From Escherichia phage OSYSP, in sequence record MF402939: a DNA stretch of 64,000 nucleotides. The stretch is one strand, 5' to 3'. The notes under the pieces were generated by a model. The model ran no database searches. It saw nothing but the letters and a program-made list of their open reading frames with translations, and was not told where the DNA came from. The translations under genes and the position numbers were made by a program. This document shows positions 9,368 to 35,616 of the stretch, piece after piece (the stretch's first letter is position 1; each line of letters starts with the position of its first letter).

Positions 9368-9474
9368 ATGTAATCAGTTTATTAGTTGATACATATTATA
9401 GCCTAAAGAAAACCCTACTACTAATCCTACGAACCAACCAATATAATAATCTTTTAATTTCACGGGTGTCAACC

Positions 9475-9654: not shown

Positions 9655-9663
9655 ATAGTTTCC

Positions 9664-9852: not shown

Positions 9853-9873
9853 TTGTAACCTCTCTAATCAAGA

Positions 9874-9951
9874 TGGTGGCTCCCCGAGGATTCGAACCTA
9901 CGTACCTTCCGGTTATGAGCCGGGTGCTCATACCATATGAGCTTGAGAACC
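9874..9951 (-). tRNA. tRNA, anticodon CAT, initiator-like anticodon arm
   Basis: Acceptor GGTTCTC/GGGAGCC, anticodon arm CCGG-CTCATAA-CCGG followed by GAAGG as in initiator tRNA; T-stem imperfect; CCA encoded. Confidence 0.45.
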
Positions 9952-9957
9952 AGAATT

Positions 9958-10046
9958 TGGCGGAAGAAGTGGGAATCGAACCCACAAGGCTATATTTCAA
10001 ACCGACAGATTAGCAATCTGCTGCAATACCGTTATGCTATTCTTCC
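9958..10046 (-). tRNA. tRNA-Ser (anticodon GCT), type II
   Basis: Acceptor GGAAGAA/TTCTTCC, anticodon arm GCAGA-TTGCTAA-TCTGT, long variable arm, T-arm GTGGG-TTCGATT-CCCAC, CCA encoded. Confidence 0.65.
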
Positions 10047-10067
10047 GAATTTATAAGATATATTATA

Positions 10068-10586
10068 TTAGAAATTTAGCTTCATAGCAAGAAAATTTTT
10101 CAAGTTTTCGGTAGACATCTCATCCACATCTACAGGAGAAACAAATCCATTTAATTGTCTAGCAAATTTTTCACCAGCAGGATCATTATCCCCAACAGCT
10201 ACCAATTTAAAAGGTAGTAATTTCAATTGCTTTAACAACGCTTTTCCTGGAGAAGAACCCAACATTGCCAGGGCTGGATAACCAGCGTTATGTAATGCTA
10301 CTGCCTTAAATACAGATTCAGCAATCAATACTACTTTTTCATCCCCAGTGAGGGTTTCTAGCCCCCATACACACTGTGTAGTAGAATAAGTAAAATATCT
10401 AGCTTCAAAGGGGCACTTACCATGACCTTTTGGAGCAGAAGGATTATACGTCTGATAGCCTCTCAACATCCCAGAGAAGTCATACAATGGGACTGTTAGC
10501 CATCCTTCCGGACTTAACCAGCAATGATACTTATCTGTATCAAACCCTCTAGATAAGAGATGTTCTGTTAGTTCATCAACAGTCAT
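10068..10586 (-). CDS. small Toprim-domain protein (about 172 aa)
   Basis: Start moved to ATG (MTVDEL...) after GAGAGAGG SD, because the first ATG of track ORF 10068-10637 lies inside the promoter; motifs IAESV...GSS...LVAVGDNDPAGEKFA match a Toprim fold. Confidence 0.6.
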   Translation of the reverse strand: MTVDELTEHLLSRGFDTDKYHCWLSPEGWLTVPLYDFSGMLRGYQTYNPSAPKGHGKCPFEARYFTYSTTQCVWGLETLTGDEKVVLIAESVFKAVALHNAGYPALAMLGSSPGKALLKQLKLLPFKLVAVGDNDPAGEKFARQLNGFVSPVDVDEMSTENLKNFLAMKLNF

Positions 10587-10616
10587 ATTAGATTCCTCTC
10601 TCAAATTTATAAATAT

Positions 10617-10645
10617 ATTATACAGAGAATTTAGCATTCAAGCAA
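10617..10645 (-). promoter_or_regulatory. sigma70-type early promoter (TTGCTT-17-TATAAT) with downstream ATAAATTTGAGAGAGG box
   Basis: Consensus hexamers and conserved downstream element on minus strand. Confidence 0.65.
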
Positions 10646-10761
10646 TTGAATTTTTTAACTTTTTAGAGGAAAATCATAGGATGCTTAAGGGTAGCAGGTA
10701 AGTGATCAGGACCGAAATTTGTGACCCCACTAAAAATCTGGGGGCAATTTTTAAAGACCCC

Positions 10762-10790
10762 TTGACATTTTCGCCGGGGTAATGTAAAGT
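10762..10790 (+). promoter_or_regulatory. sigma70-type promoter (TTGACA-17-TAAAGT) for the plus-strand low-complexity cassette
   Basis: Perfect -35 hexamer, 17-nt spacer, 4/6 -10; about 60 nt upstream of AGGAGG-ATG at 10853. Confidence 0.55.
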
Positions 10791-10852
10791 ATATGTTATG
10801 GATGAGTGATCAAAGAGACACACATTTTCTATATACTAGGAGGTGTCAAAAA

Positions 10853-11833
10853 ATGACAGAAGAAGTAGCTAAGAGTCCTGAAACCGTCGCTAGCGTAGCA
10901 GCAGAACTGCATCGTCACGAGGAATCAGATAAGAAAAAGTGGGAGAAAGTCAAAGCCTACGAGGAAAAACATCGTGAACACGATGAAGATGATGAAGAAG
11001 ATGACGATGATGAACATTGTCATAAATATGGAAAACATAAAATGCAAGAACCAGTAAACGTATTTACTAACGGCTTCCCTGGCATGGGTGCATTCCCAGC
11101 TAACGCAAGTGCTTTCGGTGGAGAAGGTATGGGTCTATTCGGAGCTATCCTAATCGGTGCTCTATTAACAGGCGGATTTGGTGGTTTTGGTGGTTTTGGT
11201 CGCGGTGCTGGCGTTGCCGCTGAAGGGACTGCTGTGGACGCGATCCTTTCTAACCAAGATACTGCAAGTATTCTAGCTGCAATCAATACTACTCGTACAG
11301 AAGCTAACCAGGGCACTGGGGCTGTTCTAAGCGCAGTAAACGGTGTGGGAGCTGCTCAAGCTGCTAGCACTCAGCAAGTTCTGACTACTGTCTACGGTAC
11401 AGGTGCTAATCTGTCAAACCAGATCTGTGCTGAAACTCGTAACGTTATTCAGGGTCAGTTCGATCTTTCTCGTCAGATGGATCAATCTTTCGCTGCTAAC
11501 CAGATAGCACGTGCTCAAGATAAGTTTGACTCTGCTCAGATTGCTTTCCAGCAGTCTATTCAGACTAACAACCAGTTCGCCGCTGTTCAGGCTCAGATGT
11601 GTGCTAACCAGAACGCTATCGAACGTCAGCTTGCTGAATGTTGCTGTGAGCTTCAGACTGCGATCGCTGGTGTAACTACTGCGCGTATTCAGGACGAACT
11701 GAATGAATGCCGTCTGCGTGAAGCAATCGCTCAAGGTAGTGGTGCAAATGGTCAGGTAATCAACCAAATCGCTGTAAGTCTTGGTGCTATCACTCAGACT
11801 CTGGCTGGTCTGCAGGCTAAACTGCCGGCTTAA
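10853..11833 (+). CDS. low-complexity protein (326 aa): acidic/His-rich N-terminus, Gly-rich hydrophobic segment, Ala/Gln/Asn-rich C-terminal domain
   Basis: Start set at ATG after AGGAGG (9-nt spacing) rather than track start 10793; segments EDDEEDDDDEHCHKYGKHK, GLFGAILIGALLTGGFGGFGGFGRGAG and CCC triplet; ctg/cgt/gct-biased codons; opposite strand to neighbours. Confidence 0.7.
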   Translation: MTEEVAKSPETVASVAAELHRHEESDKKKWEKVKAYEEKHREHDEDDEEDDDDEHCHKYGKHKMQEPVNVFTNGFPGMGAFPANASAFGGEGMGLFGAILIGALLTGGFGGFGGFGRGAGVAAEGTAVDAILSNQDTASILAAINTTRTEANQGTGAVLSAVNGVGAAQAASTQQVLTTVYGTGANLSNQICAETRNVIQGQFDLSRQMDQSFAANQIARAQDKFDSAQIAFQQSIQTNNQFAAVQAQMCANQNAIERQLAECCCELQTAIAGVTTARIQDELNECRLREAIAQGSGANGQVINQIAVSLGAITQTLAGLQAKLPA

Positions 11834-11854
11834 AATTAAGGGGAGGAGCCCATT

Positions 11855-12271
11855 ATGAGTAAATATGGTTTTGTAAACAACGGATTTAATCAACAAATGG
11901 GCTCCCAGCAGCCCGTTCCGGGTCTGGATAATCCTTACCTACAACAGTTGCAACAGCGTTTAGCAGAAGCTCAACAGATGCAGCAACAACTCCAGCAAAA
12001 CCCTGGAAGTGTGAGTCCTATGCAAATGATGCAGCAAATGAGCGGGCAGTCGCAAATGCCTCAACAAATGCAGCAACAGGTGCCTCAGCAGCAAGTTCAG
12101 CAACAAACCCAACAACCGCAGGTTTCTGCGGAAGGACAGGCAGTACTAGCCCTTTTCGAAGATTTCGCAAAGACAGAGGATGGGAAACAGCTTGTATCAC
12201 TTATGGGTAAGTTTAATAGCTTCTGCCAAAGCCAAGTTGCAAAAGCTCAAAATGGTGATAATAACTCCTAA
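11855..12271 (+). CDS. glutamine-rich low-complexity protein (138 aa)
   Basis: ORF track; AAGGGGAGGAG SD; long Q/M-rich tracts (QQMQQQLQQ...QQMQQQVPQQQVQQQTQQPQ). Confidence 0.65.
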   Translation: MSKYGFVNNGFNQQMGSQQPVPGLDNPYLQQLQQRLAEAQQMQQQLQQNPGSVSPMQMMQQMSGQSQMPQQMQQQVPQQQVQQQTQQPQVSAEGQAVLALFEDFAKTEDGKQLVSLMGKFNSFCQSQVAKAQNGDNNS

Positions 12272-12280
12272 GGAGGAATT

Positions 12281-12475
12281 ATGTGTTGCAGAAAATCTGT
12301 TTCGTGCTGCCCAATGCCTGTAGCACGTTGTTGCTCTCCAGCAATGTTTACACAAATACCGGCGTTCAATCCCTTTGCCTTTAAGCCTATTCTTATCCTG
12401 CCCCCTAGAGTAGATTTTCAGTCAAGATTGGCCTCCCGTATGGGTGGTTGCTGTAACAAGAGTATATGGTTCTAA
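12281..12475 (+). CDS. small cysteine-rich protein (64 aa; CC doublets)
   Basis: ORF track; AAGGAGG SD; MCCRKSVSCCPMPVARCCSP...GGCCNKS; followed by an intrinsic terminator. Confidence 0.55.
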   Translation: MCCRKSVSCCPMPVARCCSPAMFTQIPAFNPFAFKPILILPPRVDFQSRLASRMGGCCNKSIWF

Positions 12476-12490
12476 AGAACCAAACAATAA

Positions 12491-12526
12491 AGCCCCTAGT
12501 CGAAAGACTTAGGGGCTTTTTCTTTT
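12491..12526 (+). terminator. rho-independent terminator ending the plus-strand cassette
   Basis: Hairpin AGCCCCTAG-loop-CTAGGGGCT followed by a T-run. Confidence 0.7.
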
Positions 12527-12536
12527 GCCTTAAATA

Positions 12537-12571
12537 CAGAAAAGCCCGCGCTCTCGGAGAAAACGCGGGCT
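12537..12571 (-). terminator. rho-independent terminator after the SPFH gene
   Basis: Hairpin GCCCGCG-loop-CGCGGGC followed by TTTT on minus strand; convergent with the previous terminator. Confidence 0.6.
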
Positions 12572-12595
12572 TAGTTCGAAGATTACGTGTAACTA

Positions 12596-13543
12596 TTACT
12601 TGTTACGCATATCCATGATCATTTGACCATCATAGCCAGTGCCAACTACAGTCTGAGGTACACCACCTTGATATTTCTGAGCACGAATCATCTCAACTTC
12701 CAGTTGTTTCCAACGAATCATCTCAGGAGTAATGGTACGTTGCAGTGCGGCGTTAGCTTCAGCTTCTTTCTTAGCTGCGTACAGTTTAGCATCTGCGTCA
12801 CGTTCATTAGCAATAGCTTGGTTATTGCGAGCTTCACGATCTGCTTCTGCTTGTTTAACTTTTTGCTGTGCTTCCTGTTCAACGCGGGCAAGTTCAGCTT
12901 TCGCAGCGTTAACTTGCTCTTCACGAACTTTGGTATTCTGTACCTGTTCCATGATTACCGGTGGCAAAGTAATATCTTGAAGAAACACCTGCTTAACTGT
13001 GTAACCATATGGGCGTGCATACTCTTCAACTTCCTGTTGAATTGCAGTTTGCAATTGAGCCTGAATTTTAGCATCAAACAAATCTTGTGCTTTAGGTACA
13101 GACTTACCAAACTCACAAATAGTAGATAGTAATTTTTCAGTTACATATTTGTCTAACGCTTGATCCTGAGTACCTGCATTAATACGGTTAATCGGTGCCT
13201 TAGAACCATCAAACTGCAACATAACAGTCAGATCAACAGTGGATTTAAACTTATCCTGACTAGGAACCTGAAGTTTATCTAATTTTACAGCAATATCTTT
13301 TGTACTAAAAGTATCGAAAGATGCAAACGGGTTTACAATATGGAAACCAGGTAATACTGGATTAGGGTCTACTTTACCCAGGAATGTTTGAGTTTTAACC
13401 GTACCATCAGAAACAATAGTATATGAATTAAAAGCTAGGATTAAACCTGCTAAACCAACTACAGCACCAATACCCCAACGTTTAATAGTGCGAATTACTT
13501 TTTGCTCAGAAGTCAGTTCTTTCATATTTTTAGTATTAAACAT
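12596..13543 (-). CDS. SPFH/band-7 (HflK/HflC-like) membrane protein
   Basis: 315 aa; N-terminal hydrophobic helix (IGAVVGLAGLILAF), then SPFH-like core and long Ala/Glu/Gln-rich coiled coil; AAGGA SD. Confidence 0.6.
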   Translation of the reverse strand: MFNTKNMKELTSEQKVIRTIKRWGIGAVVGLAGLILAFNSYTIVSDGTVKTQTFLGKVDPNPVLPGFHIVNPFASFDTFSTKDIAVKLDKLQVPSQDKFKSTVDLTVMLQFDGSKAPINRINAGTQDQALDKYVTEKLLSTICEFGKSVPKAQDLFDAKIQAQLQTAIQQEVEEYARPYGYTVKQVFLQDITLPPVIMEQVQNTKVREEQVNAAKAELARVEQEAQQKVKQAEADREARNNQAIANERDADAKLYAAKKEAEANAALQRTITPEMIRWKQLEVEMIRAQKYQGGVPQTVVGTGYDGQMIMDMRNK

Positions 13544-13580
13544 ATATTTCCTTTGTTTTAGTTACAGTTAATAAAATTGA

Positions 13581-13652
13581 CCGAGGTGACAGGATTCGAA
13601 CCTGCATAAAGGAATTTAGAAGACTCCTGCCTCTCCCTTAGACTACACCCCG
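13581..13652 (-). tRNA. tRNA-Arg (anticodon TCT), CCA not encoded
   Basis: Acceptor CGGGGTG/CACCTCG, anticodon arm GGAGT-CTTCTAA-ATTCC, T-arm GCAGG-TTCGAAT-CCTGT. Confidence 0.55.
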
Positions 13653-27226: not shown

Positions 27227-29101
27227 ATGAATCGCAATGATGAACTAAAATACAAGGAAATGCAGTCCTTGATTAGAAACTGCAAAGAAATTATTGAGGG
27301 TTCTGCTGATGAAGAGCTTCTCTTTAATAATGCGAATAAACCCTCTGAGCGTTTCCCTACACAAAGGGATATGCTTGCAGGGGAATTGAGTAAATATCTG
27401 ATTCTAGAAGAAATGCCAATTCAGATTCGAAATGCTCATATGATTGGTGATATTCACTTTCATGATGCTGATTACGCTGCTTTAGGCATGACTAACTGTT
27501 GTCTAGTAGCCCTGGAAGATATGTTGAAAAATGGTATGAAAGTTGGTAATGCTGAAATTAGCACTCCAAATTCTATTACTACTGCGGCTGCTATTACAGC
27601 TCAGATTATCACACAGGTTAGCTCCCATCAGTATGGTGGTACTTCTGTAGACCGATTAGATGAAGTATTGGCTCCTTATGTTCGTAAGTCTTACGATAAG
27701 AATCATGCGTTTGCAAAACGTTGGACTAAGGACGAAGCCAAAGCATCAGTAATGGCTACGGAGATGACTGAAAAAGAAGTCTATGATGCTTGTCAGGGTC
27801 TAGAGTATGAAATCAATACGATGTTCAACTCTAATGGTCAGAGTCCATTTATTACCTTTGGTTTTGGTCTAGGAACTTCTTGGGAATCACGTCTAGTACA
27901 GAAAGCAATACTGAAAGTACGTATGGATGGCCTAGGCATCAATAAACGTACAGCTATCTTTCCTAAACTGGTGTTTGTTCTGCGCGATGGCGTAAATATG
28001 AAGCCAGGAGATGTTAATTATGACATCAAGAAGTTAGCTATGAAATGTACTGCTGAACGTATGTATCCAGACTATATCAGCTATGATAAGGTTGTGGAAG
28101 TTACTGGTGACTATAAAGTTTCTATGGGCTGCCGTTCATTCCTAGCTGCTGCAGAAGATGGTGAAACTGCCGGTCGTAATAACTTAGGTGTTGTTTCTGT
28201 AAACTTGCCTAGAATTGCTATCGAAGCTGAAGGGAATATTGATCTATTCTTTGATTTGCTTGAGTTACGTGTGGATACAGCGTTAAAAGCATTGGAGTGG
28301 AGGGTTGATCGCTTAAAATACATTCAAGCTAAAGCCGCACCCATCCTCTATATGTCAGGAGCCTTTGGATTACGCTTAGGGCCTGATGAGTATGTATTCG
28401 ATCATTTCTATAACCGTGCTTCTGTATCTCTGGGGTATATTGGTTGCCATGAAATGCTACAGTTCATGTTTGGCAAAGATGTAGATACAATGTCAGATAC
28501 CTGTATTAAGTTTGTACAACGTGTTCTACAGTATATGCGGGATAGAGTGGATCAGAAGAAGGAAGAGACTCAGTTAGGCTATAGTCTGTATGCTACACCA
28601 TCTGAATCCTTATGTGATCGTTTCTGTCGTTTAGATCGTGAATATTTTCCAGAGCATGAAGATATTCTTGGTAAAGGTTACTACACTAACTCACACCACC
28701 TCGATGTGGAGCGTAAGGTTGCTCCAAACGTGAAGTTTGACTATGAATCTAATTTTACTCCAATTGCATCTGGTGGGTGTATTTCCTACGTGGAATTACC
28801 AGACATGAAACGATTCCCAGATGCACTGGAATGGGTTATTAACTATGCTGCTAGTAAGGTTCATTACTTCGGTATTAATACTCCAGTGGATTCCTGTGGT
28901 AAATGTGGATTCTTAGGTGAAACAGTAGCATCCGAAGATGGATTCAAGTGCCCTATCTGTGGTAATCATGACCCTGAAACTCTTGAAGTAACTCGTCGAG
29001 TTTGTGGGTATCTTGGAAATCCAGGCGCTCGTCCATTTAACCCAGGCAAACAACATGAGGTTATGGGCAGGGTGAAACATCAGGATATTCGAGCTAAATA
29101 A
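27227..29101 (+). CDS. nrdD: anaerobic ribonucleoside-triphosphate reductase (class III)
   Basis: 624 aa; C-terminal glycyl-radical motif RVCGYLG and preceding Cys cluster (CGKCGF...CPICG); AAGGAGAG SD. Confidence 0.85.
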   Translation: MNRNDELKYKEMQSLIRNCKEIIEGSADEELLFNNANKPSERFPTQRDMLAGELSKYLILEEMPIQIRNAHMIGDIHFHDADYAALGMTNCCLVALEDMLKNGMKVGNAEISTPNSITTAAAITAQIITQVSSHQYGGTSVDRLDEVLAPYVRKSYDKNHAFAKRWTKDEAKASVMATEMTEKEVYDACQGLEYEINTMFNSNGQSPFITFGFGLGTSWESRLVQKAILKVRMDGLGINKRTAIFPKLVFVLRDGVNMKPGDVNYDIKKLAMKCTAERMYPDYISYDKVVEVTGDYKVSMGCRSFLAAAEDGETAGRNNLGVVSVNLPRIAIEAEGNIDLFFDLLELRVDTALKALEWRVDRLKYIQAKAAPILYMSGAFGLRLGPDEYVFDHFYNRASVSLGYIGCHEMLQFMFGKDVDTMSDTCIKFVQRVLQYMRDRVDQKKEETQLGYSLYATPSESLCDRFCRLDREYFPEHEDILGKGYYTNSHHLDVERKVAPNVKFDYESNFTPIASGGCISYVELPDMKRFPDALEWVINYAASKVHYFGINTPVDSCGKCGFLGETVASEDGFKCPICGNHDPETLEVTRRVCGYLGNPGARPFNPGKQHEVMGRVKHQDIRAK

Positions 29102-29108
29102 GCTAATC

Positions 29109-29142
29109 AGCCAGGTTGCTAGTCGACCTGGCTTTTATTTTA
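29109..29142 (+). terminator. rho-independent terminator after nrdD
   Basis: 8-bp stem AGCCAGGT/ACCTGGCT followed by TTTTATTTTATTT. Confidence 0.65.
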
Positions 29143-29143
29143 T

Positions 29144-29172
29144 TTGCTTTCAGCTAAAAATTTATGTATAAT
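29144..29172 (+). promoter_or_regulatory. sigma70 promoter (TTGCTT-17-TATAAT) with downstream ATAAATTTGAGGGGAG box
   Basis: Consensus hexamers. Confidence 0.65.
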
Positions 29173-29200
29173 AGATTTATAAATTTGAGGGGAGAAAGAT

Positions 29201-29482
29201 ATGAGCGAATTGCTTCCGAAAGTAGATGTTTCTCATCTTGGAGAGCCTAGTGAAGAACGTAAGGCTCTTGATTGGTTGGGTGGATTTGATTATCGTCGTG
29301 TTGTTGCAACATGGAATGATAAGAAAGTTAAGAAGTTTCGGGTACATTATGTAGGTAAAGACAAGTGGCTCTGGATTGATTATGAAGAATCGAAGGGGTC
29401 TACTAAGGCTGTGAAAATTTATTGTATGTATGGGTATTATTATGCTCACTGTGACAAGAATGAATTTACAGTACAGAACTAA
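29201..29482 (+). CDS. hypothetical protein (93 aa)
   Basis: ORF track; GAGGGGAG SD. Confidence 0.6.
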   Translation: MSELLPKVDVSHLGEPSEERKALDWLGGFDYRRVVATWNDKKVKKFRVHYVGKDKWLWIDYEESKGSTKAVKIYCMYGYYYAHCDKNEFTVQN

Positions 29483-29491
29483 GGAACAAGA

Positions 29492-29698
29492 ATGAAAAAC
29501 GTAAAACACCTTAAATATCGCTTAATTTACAACGGACGTATGGAAACAGAAGATCTGGCCCAATTAGCTATTAATTCTAATGAGGTTACAGTGCGTGCAC
29601 TGGCAATTGAAAAGTTGCGTGCTTCTTATGAAAGTCGTATTATGGAATTAGAGGAGAAACTTTATGGCATTCTCGAAGCCGATGCTACCCGGCAGTGA
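29492..29698 (+). CDS. hypothetical protein (68 aa)
   Basis: ORF track; AAGGA SD. Confidence 0.5.
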   Translation: MKNVKHLKYRLIYNGRMETEDLAQLAINSNEVTVRALAIEKLRASYESRIMELEEKLYGILEADATRQ

Positions 29699-29885
29699 TT
29701 TAAACACCGCTTTGGAAAACGCACTAATGCAGCACTGGGAAACTGGTTATAAGGATGGTGTTGAATCCTGCGCTACTATGCTAGAAGTTATTGCTAGTAC
29801 CTTAGTGGAGAAAGGTAATAAAGAATTGGCTGAGCTATTAGACAGTATTGGGCAAAACTTTAGAGAACAGGTGAAAAATGCGTAG
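29664..29885 (+). CDS. hypothetical protein (73 aa)
   Basis: ORF track; GAGGAG SD; overlaps previous ORF by 35 nt. Confidence 0.45.
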   Translation: MAFSKPMLPGSDLNTALENALMQHWETGYKDGVESCATMLEVIASTLVEKGNKELAELLDSIGQNFREQVKNA

Positions 29886-30702
29886 ATTAATTATTATCAG
29901 TGGTGCAGGTTTGAGTGTTGAAAGCGGTGTACGAGCCTTCCGTACTGATACTGCTAGTGGTAAAGCATTGTGGGATGATTATGATTTAGAAGAGGTATGT
30001 AGTATTCATGCCTTTCGTGGTAACTTTTATCATAAAACCCATATGTTTTACAACAAGCGACGTGAAGAGCTAAAAACTGTTGAGCCTAACCTTGCGCATC
30101 TTCGTATTGGTGAGTGGTATAAGAAATATCCGGGTCAAGTAGTAAATTTGACTACTAACGTTGATGACCTTATTGAGCGTGCTGGTGTTCCCCATAATGA
30201 TATTCTCCACATTCATGGATACTTAAAGGAGGTTGTTGTAGCTGATAGCTACAATAGTAGTAATAAACGAATTATTGATGTTGGGTATAACTCTATTGAT
30301 CCGGATGATTATAAATGGGTTAAACCTAATGTAATCTTCTTTGGGGAGCATGCTCCAGCGTACGCAGAAATGTACAATATTTTTGATGGTATTACCAGTC
30401 AAGATATGGTCGTTGTAGTTGGTTGCTCTAACCAAGTAATTAACTTCTACTGGGAATTATTCCCTGTTCTTAACCGTACTGCTGCGAAACTTATGGTGGT
30501 TAACTACTACGATAGTGCCCTAGCGGCAGAACCAGGTTATCAAGGTATGACTCGTAGTGAGATGTACCAGTTGGAAGAACGCGGTATCCCCTACTGGAGT
30601 AAAGGTGCGGTAGATGCTTTCAGTGATCCTGGTTTTATTGCTCGTGTAGAAGCTCATCTAGAGGGTAGACCTTATATGCCGGGAAAACAGATATGTCCAT
30701 AG
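29878..30702 (+). CDS. Sir2 (sirtuin)-like NAD-binding protein
   Basis: 274 aa; N-terminal IISGAGLSVESGVRAFR matches the sirtuin GAGxS..SGIP.FR NAD-binding motif; TTNVDDL and HIHG motifs; no zinc-binding Cys pairs seen. Confidence 0.6.
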   Translation: MRRLIIISGAGLSVESGVRAFRTDTASGKALWDDYDLEEVCSIHAFRGNFYHKTHMFYNKRREELKTVEPNLAHLRIGEWYKKYPGQVVNLTTNVDDLIERAGVPHNDILHIHGYLKEVVVADSYNSSNKRIIDVGYNSIDPDDYKWVKPNVIFFGEHAPAYAEMYNIFDGITSQDMVVVVGCSNQVINFYWELFPVLNRTAAKLMVVNYYDSALAAEPGYQGMTRSEMYQLEERGIPYWSKGAVDAFSDPGFIARVEAHLEGRPYMPGKQICP

Positions 30703-30875
30703 TTAAATCTGTGTATACACATCCAGATGATATATTTGTATGGGCGGATGGTAGTTGGTGCTATCGATGTGAGTTATGGGAAATGGACTATAAATCTGAT
30801 GACTATGGTGTCATATATGTTGATACGGTTGAGTATGATACGTTCTTAGAAAGGGACAAAAATGGAAATAAGTAA
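30693..30875 (+). CDS. hypothetical protein (60 aa)
   Basis: ORF track; overlaps both neighbours by a few nt. Confidence 0.4.
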   Translation: MSIVKSVYTHPDDIFVWADGSWCYRCELWEMDYKSDDYGVIYVDTVEYDTFLERDKNGNK

Positions 30876-31368
30876 TACTCCAATTATTTTTCTAGATATT
30901 GATGGGGTGCTCAACTCGAGCATCTCCCATCACCATGCACCTGATGATGAAAAGATTTTCTTTGGAAGTGACTGGGTTTTTAAACCGCTTCTCAAGGCTT
31001 TTCAGGACTTTATTCGTCCTTCCCCAATAATGATTGTTGGGGTATCTTCATGGTTCTCTGTCAGGAATGAGATGGAGAACGTTCAGATTATGACCGGATT
31101 AGATCTTATCGATCGTTTTCTTGGTACAACGGATTTTACTGGTGGTGGGCTATCTAGGGGTAATTCTGTTCTTCGCTTCGTTGAAAAACACAAGCTCAAA
31201 CATTGGTGTGTGCTGGATGATGCTGGTGCTATGATGTATCAGTATCCAACGGTTATAGTCAATGGTAGAACTGGAATAAATCTTCAAGATTTAAGAGCTG
31301 TTAGCTATATGTTAGAATTTAGTCCAGATCTTGAAATGTGTAAAGCCCTACAACAATTTAAGGTGTAA
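30862..31368 (+). CDS. HAD-superfamily phosphatase-like protein (possible deoxynucleotide monophosphatase)
   Basis: 168 aa; N-terminal FLDIDGVL motif (DxDx(T/V) nucleophile) typical of HAD hydrolases. Confidence 0.55.
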   Translation: MEISNTPIIFLDIDGVLNSSISHHHAPDDEKIFFGSDWVFKPLLKAFQDFIRPSPIMIVGVSSWFSVRNEMENVQIMTGLDLIDRFLGTTDFTGGGLSRGNSVLRFVEKHKLKHWCVLDDAGAMMYQYPTVIVNGRTGINLQDLRAVSYMLEFSPDLEMCKALQQFKV

Positions 31369-31370
31369 AT

Positions 31371-31799
31371 ATGTTCAATAATGTATTCTCTAAAGAGGCT
31401 AACCCGATATTGGTTAATTTTTGGCGTACTCTTCCAGCCAACCTGTACAATGAGGCTATTAATGCTCTGAAAATATGGTGTGAGAATAATGAAATCTCCT
31501 TTGCTTTTAAAGGCGAGATTGAGGAGGCTCCCTGTATTGGTTTAATTGTGCAGGTGGAGGATGGTCTTGAAGAGATTGTCGGCTGGAAAGAGTTGGATGA
31601 AATGGGCTTGGTTTTTGCGTTAAACTATAAGCTATTTATGCCCAATAAACACCGTATTGTTGTTAACTATAAAACCAATGAATCTCCTGGTTTTCAAGTT
31701 AATGAACGGTATGGTTGGTCTTACTCACCAGAAGAAGTAAATGATGGTATCCAAAAACTTCGTCGTTTTGGTTATCAAATTCCGGGTTTAACCGCCTAA
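31371..31799 (+). CDS. hypothetical protein, paralog A (142 aa)
   Basis: ORF track; AAGGTG SD; shares PCIG...W.ELD.MGL..ALN..LF.P motif with next ORF. Confidence 0.6.
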   Translation: MFNNVFSKEANPILVNFWRTLPANLYNEAINALKIWCENNEISFAFKGEIEEAPCIGLIVQVEDGLEEIVGWKELDEMGLVFALNYKLFMPNKHRIVVNYKTNESPGFQVNERYGWSYSPEEVNDGIQKLRRFGYQIPGLTA

Positions 31800-31808
31800 G
31801 GGGGCACA

Positions 31809-32207
31809 ATGGAACAAGTATATTGGCGTCAGATTGATCCTAGTTTGGTGAAGCGTGCGGAGAAGCTGCTACAACGTTGGTTGGGGGTAAGACAAGCCTC
31901 CTTCACTTTTCCGGAGCAGCAAATAGACGATCCCTGTATTGGTGTTTTCCTATCAGGCTACGCTAGGGAATGGGAATGGGAATTGGATTGGAATGAGTTG
32001 TCTGCTATGGGTTTAATTGTTGCCCTAAATTTCTCTTTGTTCCATCCACGTGGTTTGGCTATATGTCGTATGCCTGATGATGGTTGTTCACCCCATCTTT
32101 TACAGGTGGAAGATGATATTTGGGAGTACACTCCAGATATTCTCAAAGAAGCTAAAGAACAGTTAAACCATGTTGGGATCTATGTTCCAGGCTTGAATGA
32201 TGAATGA
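31809..32207 (+). CDS. hypothetical protein, paralog B (132 aa)
   Basis: ORF track; AAGGGGG SD; similar to preceding ORF. Confidence 0.6.
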   Translation: MEQVYWRQIDPSLVKRAEKLLQRWLGVRQASFTFPEQQIDDPCIGVFLSGYAREWEWELDWNELSAMGLIVALNFSLFHPRGLAICRMPDDGCSPHLLQVEDDIWEYTPDILKEAKEQLNHVGIYVPGLNDE

Positions 32208-32231
32208 TTTTTATTAGCTGAACTCTGATTA

Positions 32232-32256
32232 CCGAGTCATTTTGGCTCGGTTTTAT
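32232..32256 (+). terminator. possible intrinsic terminator
   Basis: CCGAG-loop-CTCGG hairpin followed by TTTTAT. Confidence 0.35.
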
Positions 32257-32298
32257 CCGTACTCAAGACCAATGATAGCACCATCCGGAAAATTTTAC

Positions 32299-32327
32299 TT
32301 GCAGGATGCCCAAAATCTTGATATAAT
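32299..32327 (+). promoter_or_regulatory. sigma70 promoter (TTGCAG-17-TATAAT, extended -10 TGATATAAT)
   Basis: Hexamers read directly; followed by about 500 nt of ORF-free leader. Confidence 0.6.
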
Positions 32328-32826
32328 ATTTATATTGAATTGAGAGACATTAGTAAAAATTGATTTTGCTAATTTTTCTTGTTTACAATCCGCGATACGG
32401 AACAGTTAGGCTGCCCCATTAAGGGTTGTTTTAACTGTTACGTGTTAGTTTTTAAACAAATAATTAATAGAATACTTAGCGATCTGCGTCCCGTAGGAAC
32501 CCTGGTAAGGCCTCGAAGCAACCTAGATAGAGGTGGTTGTGAAGTGAGACGGGAGGAGTGAAAAACTCCGAGACGTGATTCTGTAAGTTATATTGCATCT
32601 AGTATGAGCTAGTATATGAAGCATTAGGTGAGCAAATCTGGCTTAGCGGCCATCCTCAAGGATTTGTGCGGTATAGCAAAGCAGCAGCGCAGCGTGAAAG
32701 TGGAAGTTGCCACCCCACTTCAGTATTTGCGATTAATTTGTTGAGAAATTGACAGTAACAGTTGTTCTATTCTTTCTGAATAGTCCTAAAGAAAACTTAT
32801 TTCATTTCCAATACAGGAGTATTGTT

Positions 32827-35616
32827 GTGTTTTCAATCCTACAAGGTCATGCAGGATTTCATCGCGATTTAGCCACAGGCAATTGGCGAGAAGTTAAGGC
32901 AGAAGATTATCTTTTTGCTAAAAGATTTTCCTCAAAGCATCCTGAAGGTAAACCAGCTTCAATGCCCTTCAAGTTTGATGTAATTGACGAAGTTGATCCT
33001 CAAACCCTAGTAGAAATGCTTCCTCTTATGAGACGTTTAACGTCTGATCCTCATATCGTTGCGGTACGAGGTAGATGTCTTGCACCTAAAAATAATGTGC
33101 GACGTAAGAAGGGCAACTTTAATGTATCTAATCCAAGTCATATAATCGCAATGGATGTGGATGGTATTGTAGATACAGGAGGTTGTAACAAGTTTGATCT
33201 TGTTGGCATGGCGCGTCATATTATTAGGATGTTGAATAGTATTAGTGAGGATATGTTTCCTCTTGATGCAGGGTTTATTGCTCATGCATCGTCTTCGGCT
33301 GGACTAAAACCAGGTATCCGAATGCATTTAATACTAGAATCTAATGTTAAAGTTACACAGGGTCAGATCAAGTTCTTATTTACATCTATCAACGAAAGTA
33401 GTAGACAAAAGTATGGTTTTGATATTGCCGACTTAGCTTATTACTCTTCAGTACAGCTCCACTATTTTGCAGATCCTTTATTTATTGATGGTATAGTTGA
33501 TCCGTTTAAAGCGGAGGATGCTTCACGTCTGGTATTTGTTAAGGGTTCTAAAGTAAATTTACCTAATAATCTAGTTGACTATGAAACAACTAGAGGGGAG
33601 TTTAAAGAGGAATTCTACTCTTTACTCGATCAAATTAAAGGTAAAAAAGCTGCCTCTGATAAAGTAGAAGAAACCATCAGCGAGTTAGAGGAAGCTGAGG
33701 ATGGTGTATATCTACGTATTATTCCTAAACTCTATCACCGAGCACTAGAGGATGGTGTAGATTTTGGTTGGCTAGAGAAGGAGATCCGCCCAGCTTTATC
33801 TGAGTATATTGCAACTAAAGATAATAGTCGTAATATTCAGGATTATTTTAATAACGGTCGAAAACAGGCTCTGAAAGCATTTGTTAATAATTCTAAACGT
33901 GATATACCTGATGTTTTAAAAGGTATTCCACTTAAAAAGCTAGAAACTAACTCTCTAGAAACAGATAATTTCTTGAAATTAAACACTGTGCCACCAGAAG
34001 GTTATATGACTTTTGTAAAAGCAAGTCTAGGTACAGGTAAAACCACGGCGGTTGTGCGTTGGTTAGATTCAGGAGTTATTAAAGGTAATTTCTTAGCAAT
34101 TACCAATACTAGGGCACTGGTGTCTTCAAATGCCAAGAAATTTAGTGCAGGACAATATGATAAGTCTGTAGATATGCTTAATTTTAAGCGTGGTGCTATT
34201 GACCGTATGTCCACAACTATCCACTCTTTACATAAGTTTAAGAGTTTTATTGGTCAAATTGATGCAATCTTTATCGATGAATGTGATGCAGTAATGAATG
34301 ACCTATTATTCGCCCCGGTTGTTAAGCAACGTCGTGAGTGTATTCAGGTTCTTCGTGATATTCTTGCAACTGCAAAAATCATTATACTATCCGATGGTGA
34401 TATTAGTGCGGAAACAATTGAAGCATATGGTTCTTTGATTGAGTTCGATAAACCAGTTGCATTCTATAATCATCACCGTAAGATGCTGTCAAAAGCCCAC
34501 GCTTATGAGTTTCCAGATGAATCCAGTATTTGGGTTGCACTTCAGACTTCTCTAGAGATGGGGGAGAAATCTATTCTAGTATCTGATTGTGGCCCTGATG
34601 AGCTGAATGAGAAGGGTATGGCACTGCGTCGTAACACGGGTGCGTTAGTTAAGGAAATCCATTCAAACTCTACCTCAGATGTGGATATTCGACGTATTCT
34701 GGATTATACAACTAATGAGCTAATTGATCAACAAATTGATTGCTTATTATGTAGTCCATCCGTAACGAGCGGTGTTGACTTCAACTATTTTGATAACGTA
34801 TTCGTTATTACTAGAACCAGTAATCAAGCGCCAAACATGCGTTTTCAAGCAATCAGGCGCGACCGTGGTGCTCAGAATATCTATTATTTTATTGATAAAT
34901 CCACTAGTGGGTTCTCTGCAGGTTCTGAACAATATAATATTGATGAAGGTTGGCTGGAGTTAGCACAGCAATTATACGCACGTCGTAGAGAGCTGGAATC
35001 TAGAAACTATACTAGTACCTTACGGTATTACTTGCTTGATCAGGGTGCAACTATTGATATTTTCAGCGAAAGCTGGGGAACTATTGAAGGTGCTGGTAAA
35101 GAATATACAGAAGAGCGAATCAAAGCTATTCTGCATTCAACTCCAGATTATTGTGCCCCACGTCATGCAGATGCATATGAAGCTAAACTACTTCTTGTTC
35201 GCTATTATCATCTTGAGTCTATTAAAGATGTAACAGTTGAGCATGTTGAACAATATATCAAAGATAAACCGAATGATCGAGCTGCATTCTTCCATAAGAT
35301 GCACGAGATGTTCTGGGAAGATATTAAAAAGTGTTCAAATGTGACCATTAAACCATTCATAGAGGCTCTGAAAGGTAAGAAGAAAGACTTCTTCCTTAAA
35401 ACAGGTCAGAGTGCTAACCCAAAATATGCTAGAATGTATCTTGGTATGATGGGTATTGGTAAGGATATGAACACTGAAAATATCGTAGACTGGTATAGAA
35501 CCTATTGTAAAATCGAGTGTATGCCAATTCCATATAAGTTCATGACTGACGAGGAAAAACATATGCACGATGAAGCAATGTCAGAGCTAGGTGCTAGAAA
35601 TGACAGTGAAGAATAA
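32827..35616 (+). CDS. large DExD-box NTPase/helicase-like protein (putative replication origin-binding type)
   Basis: Walker A LGTGKTT, Walker B IFIDECD, downstream CSPSVTSGVDF; start tentatively GTG at 32827 after AGGAG (track start is ATG 32749). Confidence 0.7.
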   Translation: MFSILQGHAGFHRDLATGNWREVKAEDYLFAKRFSSKHPEGKPASMPFKFDVIDEVDPQTLVEMLPLMRRLTSDPHIVAVRGRCLAPKNNVRRKKGNFNVSNPSHIIAMDVDGIVDTGGCNKFDLVGMARHIIRMLNSISEDMFPLDAGFIAHASSSAGLKPGIRMHLILESNVKVTQGQIKFLFTSINESSRQKYGFDIADLAYYSSVQLHYFADPLFIDGIVDPFKAEDASRLVFVKGSKVNLPNNLVDYETTRGEFKEEFYSLLDQIKGKKAASDKVEETISELEEAEDGVYLRIIPKLYHRALEDGVDFGWLEKEIRPALSEYIATKDNSRNIQDYFNNGRKQALKAFVNNSKRDIPDVLKGIPLKKLETNSLETDNFLKLNTVPPEGYMTFVKASLGTGKTTAVVRWLDSGVIKGNFLAITNTRALVSSNAKKFSAGQYDKSVDMLNFKRGAIDRMSTTIHSLHKFKSFIGQIDAIFIDECDAVMNDLLFAPVVKQRRECIQVLRDILATAKIIILSDGDISAETIEAYGSLIEFDKPVAFYNHHRKMLSKAHAYEFPDESSIWVALQTSLEMGEKSILVSDCGPDELNEKGMALRRNTGALVKEIHSNSTSDVDIRRILDYTTNELIDQQIDCLLCSPSVTSGVDFNYFDNVFVITRTSNQAPNMRFQAIRRDRGAQNIYYFIDKSTSGFSAGSEQYNIDEGWLELAQQLYARRRELESRNYTSTLRYYLLDQGATIDIFSESWGTIEGAGKEYTEERIKAILHSTPDYCAPRHADAYEAKLLLVRYYHLESIKDVTVEHVEQYIKDKPNDRAAFFHKMHEMFWEDIKKCSNVTIKPFIEALKGKKKDFFLKTGQSANPKYARMYLGMMGIGKDMNTENIVDWYRTYCKIECMPIPYKFMTDEEKHMHDEAMSELGARNDSEE

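What the first reader, a model, noticed from the sequence alone, without database searches (positions are those of the whole stretch)
29878..30702. Sir2-like protein encoded in the early replication region
The N-terminus IISGAGLSVESGVRAFR matches the sirtuin NAD-binding motif, and TTNVDDL and HIHG fit the downstream sirtuin motifs, but the zinc-binding Cys pairs are absent. Sir2 domains occur as NAD-depleting effectors in bacterial defence systems; a phage-borne divergent Sir2 could be a deacylase, an ADP-ribosyltransferase, or a decoy.
Basis: partly seen in the sequence, partly recalled or inferred. Interest (0 to 1): 0.6.

Follow-up and report, generated by a model that had tools for sequence, protein, structure and literature searches.

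The report
Zinc-free sirtuin of T5-like phages
This gene is the already-annotated Sir2-like gene (T5.102) of T5-like phages: an apparently active NAD-using sirtuin without the usual zinc site, sitting next to a predicted RNA-end phosphatase, whose real substrate has never been tested.

Summary
The ORF at 29878-30702 (+, 274 aa) is real and is a true sirtuin. It hits Pfam SIR2 at E 1.4e-24 and PHROG 2162 at E 6.7e-121. The AlphaFold model (pLDDT 90) is closest to E. coli CobB, then Sir2Af1 and SIRT5. It is the ortholog of phage T5 gene T5.102, and homologs occur in 993 phage records, most of the listed ones already labelled Sir2.

All NAD-pocket and catalytic residues are invariant across 121 clade members, including His113 and the class-III Tyr58/Arg61 pair. 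No member has a Cys4 zinc site; aromatic or aliphatic residues sit at those positions. The conserved Gln of TQN[IV]D is always Thr. dN/dS is about 0.08.

The protein matches no PADLOC defence model, so a decoy or defence-type NADase is unlikely.

It shares a tightly packed early gene string with a HAD_SAK_2 phosphatase. In V5-like phages the ortholog sits beside RNA ligase 1, a kinase, cREC and a metallophosphoesterase. This context, and an RNA-repair (KptA-like) role, were published by Iyer et al. 2022. No experiment was found.

My best guess is a lysine deacylase for acidic acyl groups (about 0.5); direct action on RNA ends about 0.25. The finding is known and correct, with an open substrate question.

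The parts
29878..30702 (+). Sirtuin CDS, 274 aa; ortholog of phage T5 gene T5.102
   Evidence: ORF; Pfam SIR2 E 1.4e-24; PHROG 2162 E 6.7e-121; 97% nt identity to the phage chee24 gene annotated as a SIR2-family deacetylase; T5.102; AF2 pLDDT 90.4 with top Foldseek hit CobB 1s5p, E 2.4e-18
29902..29943 (+). NAD-binding Rossmann motif G9-A-G-L-S13 ... S16 G17 ... F21 R22 (cosubstrate loop)
   Evidence: 98-100% conserved in 121 clade members and identical to CobB G48-A-G-x-S52, S55, G56, F60, R61
30049..30063 (+). Y58-N-K-R61-R62: the YxxR pair that class III sirtuins use to bind the carboxylate of succinyl/malonyl-lysine
   Evidence: Y58, R61 and R62 are invariant in 121/121 members and align to CobB Y92, R95, R96. 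The role of SIRT5 Y102/R105 is stated in PMC9499238
30151..30171 (+). T92-T93-N94-V95-D96-D97-L98: nicotinamide/ribose pocket motif, with Thr in place of the Gln that is conserved in sirtuins
   Evidence: T93, N94, V95 and D96 are invariant and align to CobB Q129, N130, I131, D132. The Gln is described as universally conserved and NAD-binding in PMC9499238
30214..30219 (+). Catalytic His113-Gly114
   Evidence: Invariant; aligns to CobB H147-G148
30220..30333 (+). Small-domain beta ribbon (aa 115-152) that carries the zinc site in other sirtuins; here it has no Cys
   Evidence: CobB ligands C155/C174/C176/C177 align to V121 (V/Y/I in the clade), Y145 (Y/F), W147 (W) and V148 (C/V/A). 0-2 Cys occur in this segment in all 121 members. 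AF2 still predicts three strands, 114-122, 131-134 and 147-152, with pLDDT 91-96
30322..30348 (+). K149-P-N-V152-I-F154-F155-G-E157: substrate-tunnel / beta-staple motif ('RPxVVxFGE')
   Evidence: K149, P150, V152, F154, F155 and E157 are invariant and align to CobB R184, P185, V187, W189, F190, E192
30421..30504 (+). G182-C-S184 (= GTS), V187-I-N-F190 (in place of CobB V-Y-P-A) and N209: NAD ribose/adenine contacts and second staple loop
   Evidence: G182, S184, V187, F190 and N209 are invariant
30693..30875 (+). 60-aa ORF overlapping both the sirtuin stop and the HAD start (T5.104 family, PHROG 5116); unknown function
   Evidence: Present in 25/33 T5-like loci and directly downstream of the sirtuin in one non-T5-like contig, L042
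30862..31368 (+). HAD_SAK_2 phosphatase (168 aa, motif I FLDIDGV); predicted RNA-end phosphatase; T5.105 ortholog
   Evidence: Pfam PF18143 E 1.8e-20, 74 bits against a cutoff of 27.5. Linked to the sirtuin in 30/33 T5-like loci, on either side of it. Co-deleted with the sirtuin in phage DT57C
31371..32207 (+). Two tandem DUF7415 paralogs (142 and 132 aa; T5.106/T5.107) that end the same gene string
   Evidence: Pfam PF24187 E 3e-32 and 2e-31. Present in 31/33 T5-like loci and in no V5-like or other locus
29109..29133 (+). Strong intrinsic terminator after nrdD, marking the 5' boundary of the sirtuin-containing transcription unit
   Evidence: 10-bp stem with 6 GC pairs plus a T-run. The T5 record annotates a terminator and then a promoter at the same place, and a terminator after T5.107
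29201..29885 (+). Three small ORFs (93, 68 and 73 aa) upstream in the same string; unknown function, T5-like only
   Evidence: PHROGs 7953, 5236 and 5827. Found only in T5-like loci

Best explanation
The ORF is the T5.102 ortholog. It is a catalytically competent, zinc-free member of a branch of class-III-like sirtuins whose close members (174 hits at E<=1e-5) come, where a source name or contig size is available, from phage or phage-sized contigs. Shown: it has the sirtuin fold. It keeps every residue that binds NAD+ and the general-base His. It keeps the hydrophobic substrate tunnel (V152, F155, E157) and the Tyr58/Arg61 pair that class III enzymes use to hold an acidic acyl group. The zinc ligands are replaced by an aromatic/aliphatic mini-core. 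The gene is under strong purifying selection and lies in an early gene string bounded upstream by a terminator, with a HAD phosphatase. Inferred: early in infection it binds NAD+ and a substrate oxygen nucleophile, releases nicotinamide and forms an ADP-ribosyl adduct. I take the most likely substrate to be an acyl-lysine on a host or phage protein, preferentially succinyl, malonyl or glutaryl. That makes it a CobB/SIRT5-type deacylase producing O-acyl-ADP-ribose. The target proteins are unknown and may belong to the tRNA/RNA-repair or NAD-linked functions encoded next to it. Probabilities: sirtuin identity and catalytic competence about 0.95; lysine deacylase as the specific chemistry about 0.5.
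For: Family and fold: Pfam SIR2 E 1.4e-24. PDB sequence search top hits are CobB 1s5p (E 2.5e-17), Sir2Af1/Af2 and SIRT5. AF2 gives pLDDT 90.4 and pTM 0.88. Foldseek top 50 are all CobB, Sir2Af1, SIRT5 or Sir2Tm, with a target-normalised TM of 0.85 to CobB. NCBIfam best hits are 'NAD-dependent protein deacylase' models. Active site: G9AGxS13, F21, R22, N94, D96, H113, F155, E157, G182, S184 and N209 are 98-100% conserved in 121 sequences spanning 47-97% identity. Acyl pocket: the CobB positions engineered to change acyl selectivity (A76, Y92, I131, V187; PDB titles) correspond to invariant C41, Y58, V95 and V152. R61 (= SIRT5 R105) is 121/121, although it is replaced (mostly by M or L) in about a fifth of the wider relatives. 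Function is maintained: dN/dS is about 0.08. Not a defence-type SIR2: no PADLOC hits.
Against: No biochemical or genetic test of any phage sirtuin was found. The Gln described as universally conserved and NAD-binding is Thr in every clade member, and the V-Y-P staple loop is V-I-N/D, so the chemistry or substrate may differ from CobB. Scores against the curated CobB equivalog models are far below cutoff: 104 against 243 and 92 against 320. The gene repeatedly neighbours RNA end-healing and sealing genes in unrelated phage groups, which a general protein deacylase does not explain. Host CobB is reported to restrict T4 and lambda (PMC4271551), so extra CobB-like activity is not obviously useful to a phage. 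DT57C has lost the gene, so it is not essential.
Confidence: 0.5

Rival explanations
1. RNA-repair sirtuin (hypothesis of Iyer, Burroughs, Anantharaman and Aravind 2022). The enzyme would use NAD+ like the unrelated RNA 2'-phosphotransferase KptA/Tpt1. A 2'-phosphate left on cleaved tRNA or RNA attacks C1'' of NAD+ and is removed as an ADP-ribose (cyclic) phosphate. The neighbouring HAD, metallophosphoesterase, cREC and kinase enzymes would prepare the ends or clear the by-product, and a ligase would seal the break.
For: The published prediction covers exactly this neighbourhood: Tequintavirus SP15, sirtuin plus 'Swiss-army-knife' HAD (PMC9503650). It is reproduced here independently. HAD_SAK_2 lies 160 bp downstream in the window and is present in 30/33 T5-like loci, on either side of the sirtuin. 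In the 16 V5-like loci the 47-64%-identical ortholog sits within about 3 kb (5 kb in one locus) of RNA_lig_T4_1, an AAA_33 kinase, cREC and/or a Metallophos gene wherever the contig extends that far (14 of 16 carry all of Rnl1, kinase and Metallophos), despite rearrangements. In a jumbo-phage contig a 37%-identical sirtuin lies within 4 kb of RlaP and Thg1. No macro domain is adjacent. The invariant Y58/R61 plus K60 and R62 would suit an anionic (phosphate) group. One deletion in DT57C removed the catalytic parts of both the sirtuin and the HAD. The phage carries 23 tRNA genes.
Against: No sirtuin is known to act on nucleic acid. The narrow lysine tunnel motif (KPxVxFFGE) is invariant rather than opened up. 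Apart from four partly conserved lysines (K29, K53, K60 at 85-89% and K204 at 97%, none invariant), no new conserved basic surface appears, and the protein is acidic (pI 5.7; KptA 9.4). That argument is weak, because the phage Rnl1 is also acidic. T5-like phages show no RNA ligase, polynucleotide kinase or 2H phosphodiesterase in the annotated 50-kb region around the gene. V5-like clusters already hold a complete T4-type heal-and-seal set that leaves no 2'-phosphate. E. coli has its own KptA. 17 of 66 loci show no RNA-repair neighbour. Gene adjacency within early regions of related phages is weaker evidence than operon conservation in bacteria.
Confidence: 0.25
2. Protein or small-molecule ADP-ribosyltransferase, or a regulated NAD+ glycohydrolase. 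The altered pocket (Gln to Thr) would favour ADP-ribose transfer to a non-acyl acceptor or to water. The phage would use this to modify a host factor or to make or destroy an NAD-derived metabolite, which the adjacent phosphatase then processes.
For: The invariant Gln-to-Thr change is in the ribose-binding motif. Some relatives sit next to NAD-salvage or ADP-ribose-processing genes: NAMPT directly upstream in L068; DUF4326 and a nucleoside 2-deoxyribosyltransferase-like gene flanking it in L069; NAPRTase, PRPP synthetase and NADAR within a few kb in V5-like phages. The T5 record itself lists 'ADP-ribosylase' among possible activities.
Against: The full deacylase apparatus (His113, tunnel, YxxR) is conserved, unlike in known NADase SIR2 domains, and no PADLOC defence SIR2 model matches. 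No macro-domain partner is present as in SirTM systems. T5-like phages depend on an NAD-dependent DNA ligase encoded about 8 kb downstream, so unregulated NAD+ destruction would hurt the phage.
Confidence: 0.2
3. Inactive remnant or decoy that only binds a host factor or a defence-system ligand.
For: The gene is dispensable in at least one natural isolate (DT57C). The zinc site is lost.
Against: All catalytic and NAD-binding residues are invariant over 121 sequences down to 47% identity. dN/dS is about 0.08. The zinc-free small domain is confidently predicted to fold. There is no similarity to defence SIR2 families that a decoy would mimic.
Confidence: 0.03

Closest known systems
E. coli CobB (PDB 1S5P, 6RXJ) and human SIRT5: class III sirtuin lysine deacylases
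   Same: Same fold (Foldseek E 2.4e-18, target-normalised TM 0.85). Same NAD motifs, catalytic His, FGE tunnel motif and the Y-x-x-R acidic-acyl pocket. Similar size, single domain.
   Different: Only about 24% identity. No Cys4 zinc site: the ligand positions hold V/Y/I, Y/F, W and C/V/A. TQN[IV]D is TTNVD, GTS is GCS, and the VYP loop is VIN. There is an extra 30-residue insertion (aa 210-240) before the C-terminal helices. It fails the curated NCBIfam CobB cutoffs. It is encoded by a virulent phage.
Phage T5 T5.102 'Sir2-like protein' / PHROG 2162, and the phage sirtuin clade of Iyer et al. 2022 (PMC9503650)
   Same: Direct ortholog, about 95% aa identity. Same gene order nrdD - sirtuin - HAD - DUF7415 x2. 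Same family as the sirtuins of V5-like and other large enterobacterial phages at 47-65% identity.
   Different: Nothing material; this window is another T5-like isolate. The family's function is predicted only.
Sir2/CobB of Vibrio schizoT4-like phages (KVP40, phiSt2, phiGrn1; PMC5107563)
   Same: Phage-borne sirtuins for which loss of the zinc ligands has already been noted. They were suggested to deacetylate host enzymes, and the paper lists the T5 homolog. They are detected here at about 40% identity.
   Different: More distant sequences. They are linked to NAD salvage (NAMPT/NMNAT) rather than to the HAD phosphatase.
Defence-associated SIR2 NADases (ThsA, DSR1/2, SIR2-HerA, SIR2-APAZ/pAgo)
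   Same: Distantly related Rossmann-type NAD-binding domain. Also lacks the zinc module.
   Different: A different Pfam family (SIR2_2 type). No PADLOC model matches. No sensor or partner domains. The phage protein keeps the deacylase tunnel and the YxxR pair.
KptA/Tpt1 RNA 2'-phosphotransferase
   Same: A possible functional analogy only: NAD+-dependent ADP-ribosyl transfer to an oxygen nucleophile, in an RNA-repair gene context (PMC9503650).
   Different: Unrelated fold and sequence. KptA is basic (pI 9.4 against 5.7). The analogy is untested.

Membership tests
Sirtuin family (Pfam PF02146 SIR2) | Profile match above the curated gathering score | tested here: met
   87.5 bits against a cutoff of 24, E 1.4e-24, profile positions 1-178 of 180
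Sirtuin family (Pfam PF02146 SIR2) | Rossmann NAD-binding motif GAGxS plus the cosubstrate-loop F-R | tested here: met
   G9AGLS13 and F21 R22; 98-100% conserved in the clade and identical to CobB
Sirtuin family (Pfam PF02146 SIR2) | Catalytic His in an HG motif, and N/D of the TQN[IV]D motif | tested here: met
   H113-G114, N94 and D96 are invariant and align to CobB H147, N130, D132
Sirtuin family (Pfam PF02146 SIR2) | Conserved Gln of TQN[IV]D (NAD ribose contact) | tested here: not met
   Thr93 in 121/121 clade members. The Gln is described as universally conserved in PMC9499238
Sirtuin family (Pfam PF02146 SIR2) | Cys4 zinc ribbon in the small domain | tested here: not met
   No Cys in aa 115-152. 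The ligand positions hold V, Y, W and V. 0-2 Cys occur in this segment in all 121 members
Sirtuin family (Pfam PF02146 SIR2) | Sirtuin two-domain fold | tested here: met
   AF2 pLDDT 90.4; all top 50 Foldseek PDB hits are sirtuins at probability 1.00
Sirtuin family (Pfam PF02146 SIR2) | NAD+-dependent deacylase or ADP-ribosyltransferase activity | not testable with these tools
   Requires an enzyme assay; no published assay was found
Class III sirtuins (CobB / SIRT5) | Y-x-x-R pair that binds acidic acyl groups | tested here: met
   Y58 and R61 are invariant and align to CobB Y92/R95
Class III sirtuins (CobB / SIRT5) | Closest solved structures and sequences are class III | tested here: met
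   Top PDB hits by sequence and by fold are CobB, Sir2Af1 and SIRT5
CobB equivalog (NCBIfam NF040867 / NF001755) | Score above the curated equivalog cutoff | tested here: not met
   92 against 320 bits and 78 against 318 bits. The best subfamily model, NF001753, scores 104 against 243. CobB itself scores 600 bits
Defence-associated SIR2 (ThsA, DSR, SIR2-HerA, pAgo-SIR2) | Match to a defence SIR2 model and a sensor/partner gene or domain | tested here: not met
   No PADLOC hit at E<=0.1. It is a single-domain protein and its neighbours are not HerA, SLOG or pAgo
SirTM (macro-domain-linked ADP-ribosylating sirtuins) | Operon with a macro-domain gene | tested here: not met
   None of the 7 flanking ORFs, nor the neighbours in 6 other loci, carries a Macro domain
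Phage RNA-repair-associated sirtuin clade (Iyer et al. 2022) | Conserved linkage to a HAD_SAK phosphatase or to the Rnl1/kinase/cREC/phosphoesterase genes, with no macro partner | tested here: met
   HAD_SAK_2 at 30862-31368. 30/33 T5-like loci carry the HAD, and the V5-like loci carry the Rnl1 set wherever the contig extends far enough (14 of 16 complete). SP15 is a Tequintavirus
Phage RNA-repair-associated sirtuin clade (Iyer et al. 2022) | Acts on RNA 2'-phosphate (KptA-like) | not testable with these tools
   This is a prediction only (PMC9503650). The sequence features are ambiguous

The most novel reading that the evidence does not exclude
The phage clade would be the first sirtuin that works on nucleic acid. 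With the adjacent HAD phosphatase it would use NAD+ to remove or convert a phosphate (or another blocking group) on damaged tRNA/RNA ends. That would give T5-like and V5-like phages an NAD-dependent tRNA-repair route against host anticodon nucleases. The invariant Gln-to-Thr change and the zinc-free small domain would be the adaptations for the new substrate. The idea was published as a prediction in 2022 and is untested.
Probability: 0.25. Interest if true: 0.75.

Novelty: already known. Interest (0 to 1): 0.3.

Why it matters
As a gene call it adds nothing new. The same gene is annotated as a SIR2-family deacetylase or Sir2-like protein in phage T5 and in most of the related records inspected, and its neighbourhood has been analysed in print. 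What remains open is the function. About 2% of sequenced phage genomes (993 of 50,697 records) carry a homolog; the closer ones (47% identity and above) form a strongly conserved, zinc-free clade with an altered NAD-ribose contact, and nobody has shown what it acts on. If it is a deacylase, it would be a direct way for virulent phages to rewrite the host's lysine-acylation state. If it acts on RNA ends, it would extend sirtuin chemistry to nucleic acids and add a new arm to phage counter-defence against tRNA-cleaving systems. Both are testable with simple assays on a small soluble protein from a model phage.

Tried and rejected
- **Defence-type SIR2 or decoy:** the PADLOC scan gave no hit for the sirtuin or the HAD, so this reading was dropped.
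- **Fusion partners as functional clues:** a Pfam scan of ten longer relatives (304-528 aa) showed only SIR2 plus WG or RHS repeats. Uninformative.
- **Names and sources of the nearest 50%-cluster relatives:** almost all are unnamed metagenome proteins. Uninformative.
- **PDB sequence searches:** nothing significant for the HAD or the DUF7415 proteins.
- **Isoelectric point as a test for RNA binding:** the sirtuin is acidic and KptA is basic, but the phage RNA ligase 1 is equally acidic. I therefore count this as weak evidence only.
- **Simple sigma-70 promoter scan of 28900-32900:** fewer matches than in shuffled sequence. Only the terminator after nrdD is convincing.
- **Literature searches for any experiment on a phage sirtuin:** searches on T5.102, HAD_SAK_2 and DUF7415 found none. 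A 2026 paper on the phage NARP3 system mentions Sir2 only as a host defence.
- **Zinc-free sirtuin precedents:** I looked in the Sir2La preprint and in a bacterial-sirtuin review and found nothing usable.
- **Not attempted:** structure prediction of the DUF7415 proteins or the 60-aa ORF, which is tangential and would have cost a large database search.
Full report
**1. Observation**

The window has an ATG-to-TAG ORF at exactly 29878-30702 on the + strand, encoding 274 aa. An AGGTG ribosome-binding site lies just upstream. The ORF overlaps the upstream ORF by 8 nt and the downstream ORF by 10 nt.

- IISGAGLSVESGVRAFR, aa 6-22
- TTNVDDL, aa 92-98
- HIHG, aa 111-114

The protein has three cysteines (C41, C183, C273). 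None lies between the catalytic His and the FGE motif, where sirtuins carry their zinc ligands.

**2. Identity**

- Pfam SIR2 (PF02146) matches at E 1.4e-24, 87.5 bits against a cutoff of 24, over almost the whole profile.
- PHROG 2162, 'Sir2 (NAD-dependent deacetylase)', matches at E 6.7e-121.
- By sequence, the closest solved structures are E. coli CobB (E 2.5e-17), the Archaeoglobus Sir2 proteins and SIRT5. These are class III sirtuins (Sir2Af2 is usually placed in class U). Sir2Tm and SIRT3/2 follow.
- An AlphaFold2 model built on a 120-sequence alignment is confident: pLDDT 90.4, pTM 0.88.
- Its top 50 Foldseek hits in the PDB are all sirtuins. CobB 1s5p is first, at E 2.4e-18 and a target-normalised TM of 0.85.
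- NCBIfam also points to 'NAD-dependent protein deacylase' models, but far below their curated cutoffs (104 against 243; 92 against 320). It is therefore a divergent relative of CobB, not an equivalog.
- No PADLOC defence model matches. It is not the SIR2 type used by Thoeris, DSR, SIR2-HerA or pAgo systems.

**3. Residue anatomy**

I aligned the query with 120 homologs and E. coli CobB. The following are 98-100% conserved:

| Phage clade | CobB equivalent | Role |
|---|---|---|
| G9-A-G-x-S13, S16, G17, F21, R22 | G48-A-G-x-S52, S55, G56, F60, R61 | NAD-binding Rossmann motif and cosubstrate loop |
| N94, V95, D96 | N130, I131, D132 | nicotinamide/ribose pocket |
| H113-G114 | H147-G148 | catalytic His |
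| K149-P-x-V152-x-F154-F155-x-E157 | R184-P-x-V187-x-W189-F190-x-E192 | substrate tunnel / beta-staple ('RPxVVxFGE') |
| G182-x-S184 | G214-x-S216 (GTS) | NAD contact |
| N209 | N240 | NAD contact |

The class III signature is also invariant: Y58 and R61 correspond to CobB Y92/R95 and SIRT5 Y102/R105. That pair binds the carboxylate of succinyl- or malonyl-lysine (PMC9499238).

This invariance is specific to the clade. Among 150 more distant representatives, the R61 position is replaced (mostly by M or L) in about a fifth of them.

The CobB residues that were engineered to change acyl selectivity (A76, Y92, I131, V187; PDB titles) correspond to invariant C41, Y58, V95 and V152.

**4. What is unusual**

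- **No zinc site.** The four CobB zinc ligands (C155, C174, C176, C177) align to V121 (V/Y/I in the clade), Y145 (Y/F), W147 (W) and V148 (C/V/A). No clade member has more than two Cys in this segment. The model nevertheless predicts the three-stranded ribbon (strands 114-122, 131-134, 147-152) at pLDDT 91-96. A hydrophobic mini-core appears to replace the metal.
- **Gln to Thr.** The Gln of TQN[IV]D is described as universally conserved and NAD-binding. It is Thr in 121/121 members.
- **The two changes travel together.** Among the scorable representatives: Thr with two or fewer Cys, 33; Thr with three or more Cys, 10; Gln with two or fewer Cys, 15; Gln with three or more Cys, 77. These counts are not phylogenetically independent.
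- **Altered staple loop.** The V-Y-P loop after GTS is V-I-N/D.
- **An insertion.** There is a 30-residue insertion at aa 210-240.

**5. Distribution, selection and dispensability**

- Megablast finds the gene in 234 phage records. These are T5-like Escherichia and Salmonella phages. The best match is 97% (chee24), and most of the listed hits are annotated 'NAD-dependent protein deacetylase of SIR2 family' or 'Sir2-like protein'.
- tblastn finds homologs in 993 of 50,697 phage records. Beyond the T5-like phages these include V5-like and other 135-155-kb myoviruses, Klebsiella T5-likes, Vibrio schizoT4-likes and jumbo phages.
- In phage T5 itself the ortholog is T5.102, annotated from InterPro IPR003000.
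- dN/dS against 21 T5-like orthologs is 0.04-0.16 (median 0.078 over 22 comparisons, one of them a mis-extracted fragment).
- Phage DT57C carries a 91-aa chimeric ORF made of sirtuin aa 171-212 fused to HAD aa 128-168. One deletion therefore removed the catalytic parts of both genes, so the pair is dispensable for propagation.

**6. Context**

The sirtuin lies in a tightly packed, overlapping string of eight + strand ORFs, corresponding to T5.100-T5.107. A strong terminator after nrdD (29109-29133) marks the upstream end. The T5 record annotates a terminator after the last gene.

Two genes downstream, at 30862-31368, is a HAD_SAK_2 phosphatase, the 'HAD domain in Swiss Army Knife RNA repair proteins'. 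It matches at E 1.8e-20 and has the catalytic DxDGV motif. Two DUF7415 paralogs follow.

I fetched 59 IMG/VR loci and six contigs, and searched their ORFs with HMMs built from the annotated neighbours. The results fall into four groups.

- **T5-like loci.** 30 of 33 carry the HAD and 31 of 33 carry DUF7415. The HAD can lie upstream or downstream of the sirtuin.
- **V5-like loci (16).** Each places the 47-64%-identical sirtuin within about 3 kb (5 kb in one locus) of RNA ligase 1, an AAA_33 kinase, cREC and/or a metallophosphoesterase wherever the contig extends that far (14 of 16 carry all of Rnl1, kinase and Metallophos), and next to an ATP-dependent DNA ligase, despite rearrangements.
- **Other loci (17).** None of these neighbours is present. 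Examples are a C5 methylase and DUF7275/7277.
- **Two distant loci.**
  - A jumbo-phage contig has DUF4326 and a nucleoside deoxyribosyltransferase-like gene flanking the sirtuin, with RlaP and Thg1 within 4 kb.
  - Another contig has NAMPT directly upstream.

**7. Literature**

- Skliros et al. 2016 (PMC5107563) modelled a Vibrio-phage Sir2/CobB. They noted the missing zinc site, proposed deacetylation of host enzymes, and listed the T5 homolog.
- Iyer et al. 2022 (PMC9503650) state that most viral sirtuins form a distinct clade linked to RNA repair. Their three neighbourhood types include 'Escherichia phage SP15: sirtuin + Swiss-army-knife HAD'. They propose a KptA-like removal of RNA 2'-phosphates. 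SP15 is a Tequintavirus, so that description covers this locus.
- Koyuncu et al. 2014 (PMC4271551) report that host CobB restricts T4 and lambda.
- I found no experimental work on any phage sirtuin.

**8. Mechanism**

*Shown:* a sirtuin fold with a complete and conserved catalytic apparatus, under purifying selection, in an early gene string with a HAD phosphatase.

*Inferred:* it binds NAD+, releases nicotinamide and forms an ADP-ribosyl adduct with an oxygen nucleophile of its substrate.

- **Lysine deacylase for acidic acyl groups, about 0.5.** I rank this first for two reasons. The lysine tunnel and the YxxR pocket are invariant. And every characterised enzyme with this residue set is a protein deacylase.
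- **Direct action on RNA ends, about 0.25.** This is the main rival.
  - For it: the recurring RNA-repair neighbourhoods in three unrelated phage groups, and the co-deletion with the HAD.
  - Against it: the closed-tunnel motifs; only a few partly conserved clade-specific lysines rather than a new basic surface; the absence of a ligase, kinase or 2H enzyme in the 50 kb examined around the gene in a T5-like phage; and the fact that V5-like clusters already contain a complete T4-type heal-and-seal set.
- **Protein or small-molecule ADP-ribosyltransferase, or regulated NADase, about 0.2.** The Gln-to-Thr change and the NAD-salvage neighbours keep this open. However, T5-like phages depend on their own NAD-dependent DNA ligase, which argues against free NAD+ destruction.
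- **Decoy or inactive remnant, about 0.03.**

**9. Verdict**

The finding is correct but already known. It is the T5.102-type phage sirtuin, already labelled Sir2 or SIR2-family deacetylase in T5 and in most of the related records inspected, and its gene context and a functional hypothesis are published.

This analysis adds:
- the residue-level picture: an intact class III pocket, Thr for Gln, and hydrophobic replacement of all four zinc ligands;
- quantified linkage statistics for the neighbouring genes;
- the DT57C co-deletion;
- an explanation for a recurring mis-annotation of the neighbouring HAD gene as 'Sir2'.

The substrate remains an open question that can be tested directly.

Noticed in passing
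window 30862-31368; L009 38109-38405; L011 7589-8095; L010 3980-4252: The HAD_SAK_2 phosphatase gene is labelled 'Sir2 (NAD-dependent deacetylase)' in the RefSeq records of T5 (T5.105) and chee24 (gp115). PHROG 18062 carries the same label, yet it matches the HAD C-terminus at E 1.9e-58. The likely cause is the DT57C 'defective Sir2' ORF, which is a sirtuin(171-212)-HAD(128-168) deletion chimera that bridges the two families.
   Followed up: yes
window 31371-31799 and 31809-32207: Two tandem paralogs of DUF7415 (each with two repeats of the 53-aa domain) end the sirtuin gene string. They accompany the sirtuin in 31/33 T5-like loci, including three that lack the HAD, but never in V5-like or other loci. 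No PDB relative was found. Function unknown.
   Followed up: partly
window 30693-30875; L042 816-998: A 60-aa acidic ORF (pI 4.3) overlaps both the sirtuin stop and the HAD start. A homolog sits in the same overlapping position directly after the sirtuin in a non-T5-like contig, so it may be a partner protein.
   Followed up: partly
window 899-13652, minus strand: An array of 23 tRNA genes covering 18 of the 20 amino acids (no tRNA-Trp or tRNA-Arg other than TCT seen by ARAGORN in the window), typical of T5-like phages. It is relevant background for any tRNA-repair reading of the sirtuin/HAD pair.
   Followed up: no
L068 8057-9490 and L069 9721-14639: Distant phage sirtuins (37-43% identity) sit next to NAD-related or tRNA-repair genes. 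In one contig NAMPT is directly upstream. In a 279-kb jumbo-phage contig DUF4326 and a nucleoside 2-deoxyribosyltransferase-like gene flank the sirtuin, with RlaP and Thg1 close by.
   Followed up: partly
representatives P0121-P0269: Across the wider family, loss of the four zinc cysteines goes together with replacement of the TQN Gln by Thr: 33 Thr/Cys-poor and 77 Gln/Cys4, against 10 and 15 mixed cases. Both states keep His-Gly and FGE. No structural reason for this coupling is known to me.
   Followed up: partly
window 32208-32748: About 540 bp without a convincing ORF separates the last DUF7415 gene from the large primase/helicase ORF. The TTG start that the ORF listing gives at 32749 is probably upstream of the real start, because related records begin this gene several hundred bases later. 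The T5 record annotates a terminator and a promoter here.
   Followed up: no
L003 1-209 and 12608-12777; L006 1-1416: In V5-like phages the sirtuin / RNA-ligase cluster lies within a few kb of PRPP synthetase, NAPRTase and a NADAR gene, which are NAD-salvage and ADP-ribose-processing functions.
   Followed up: no
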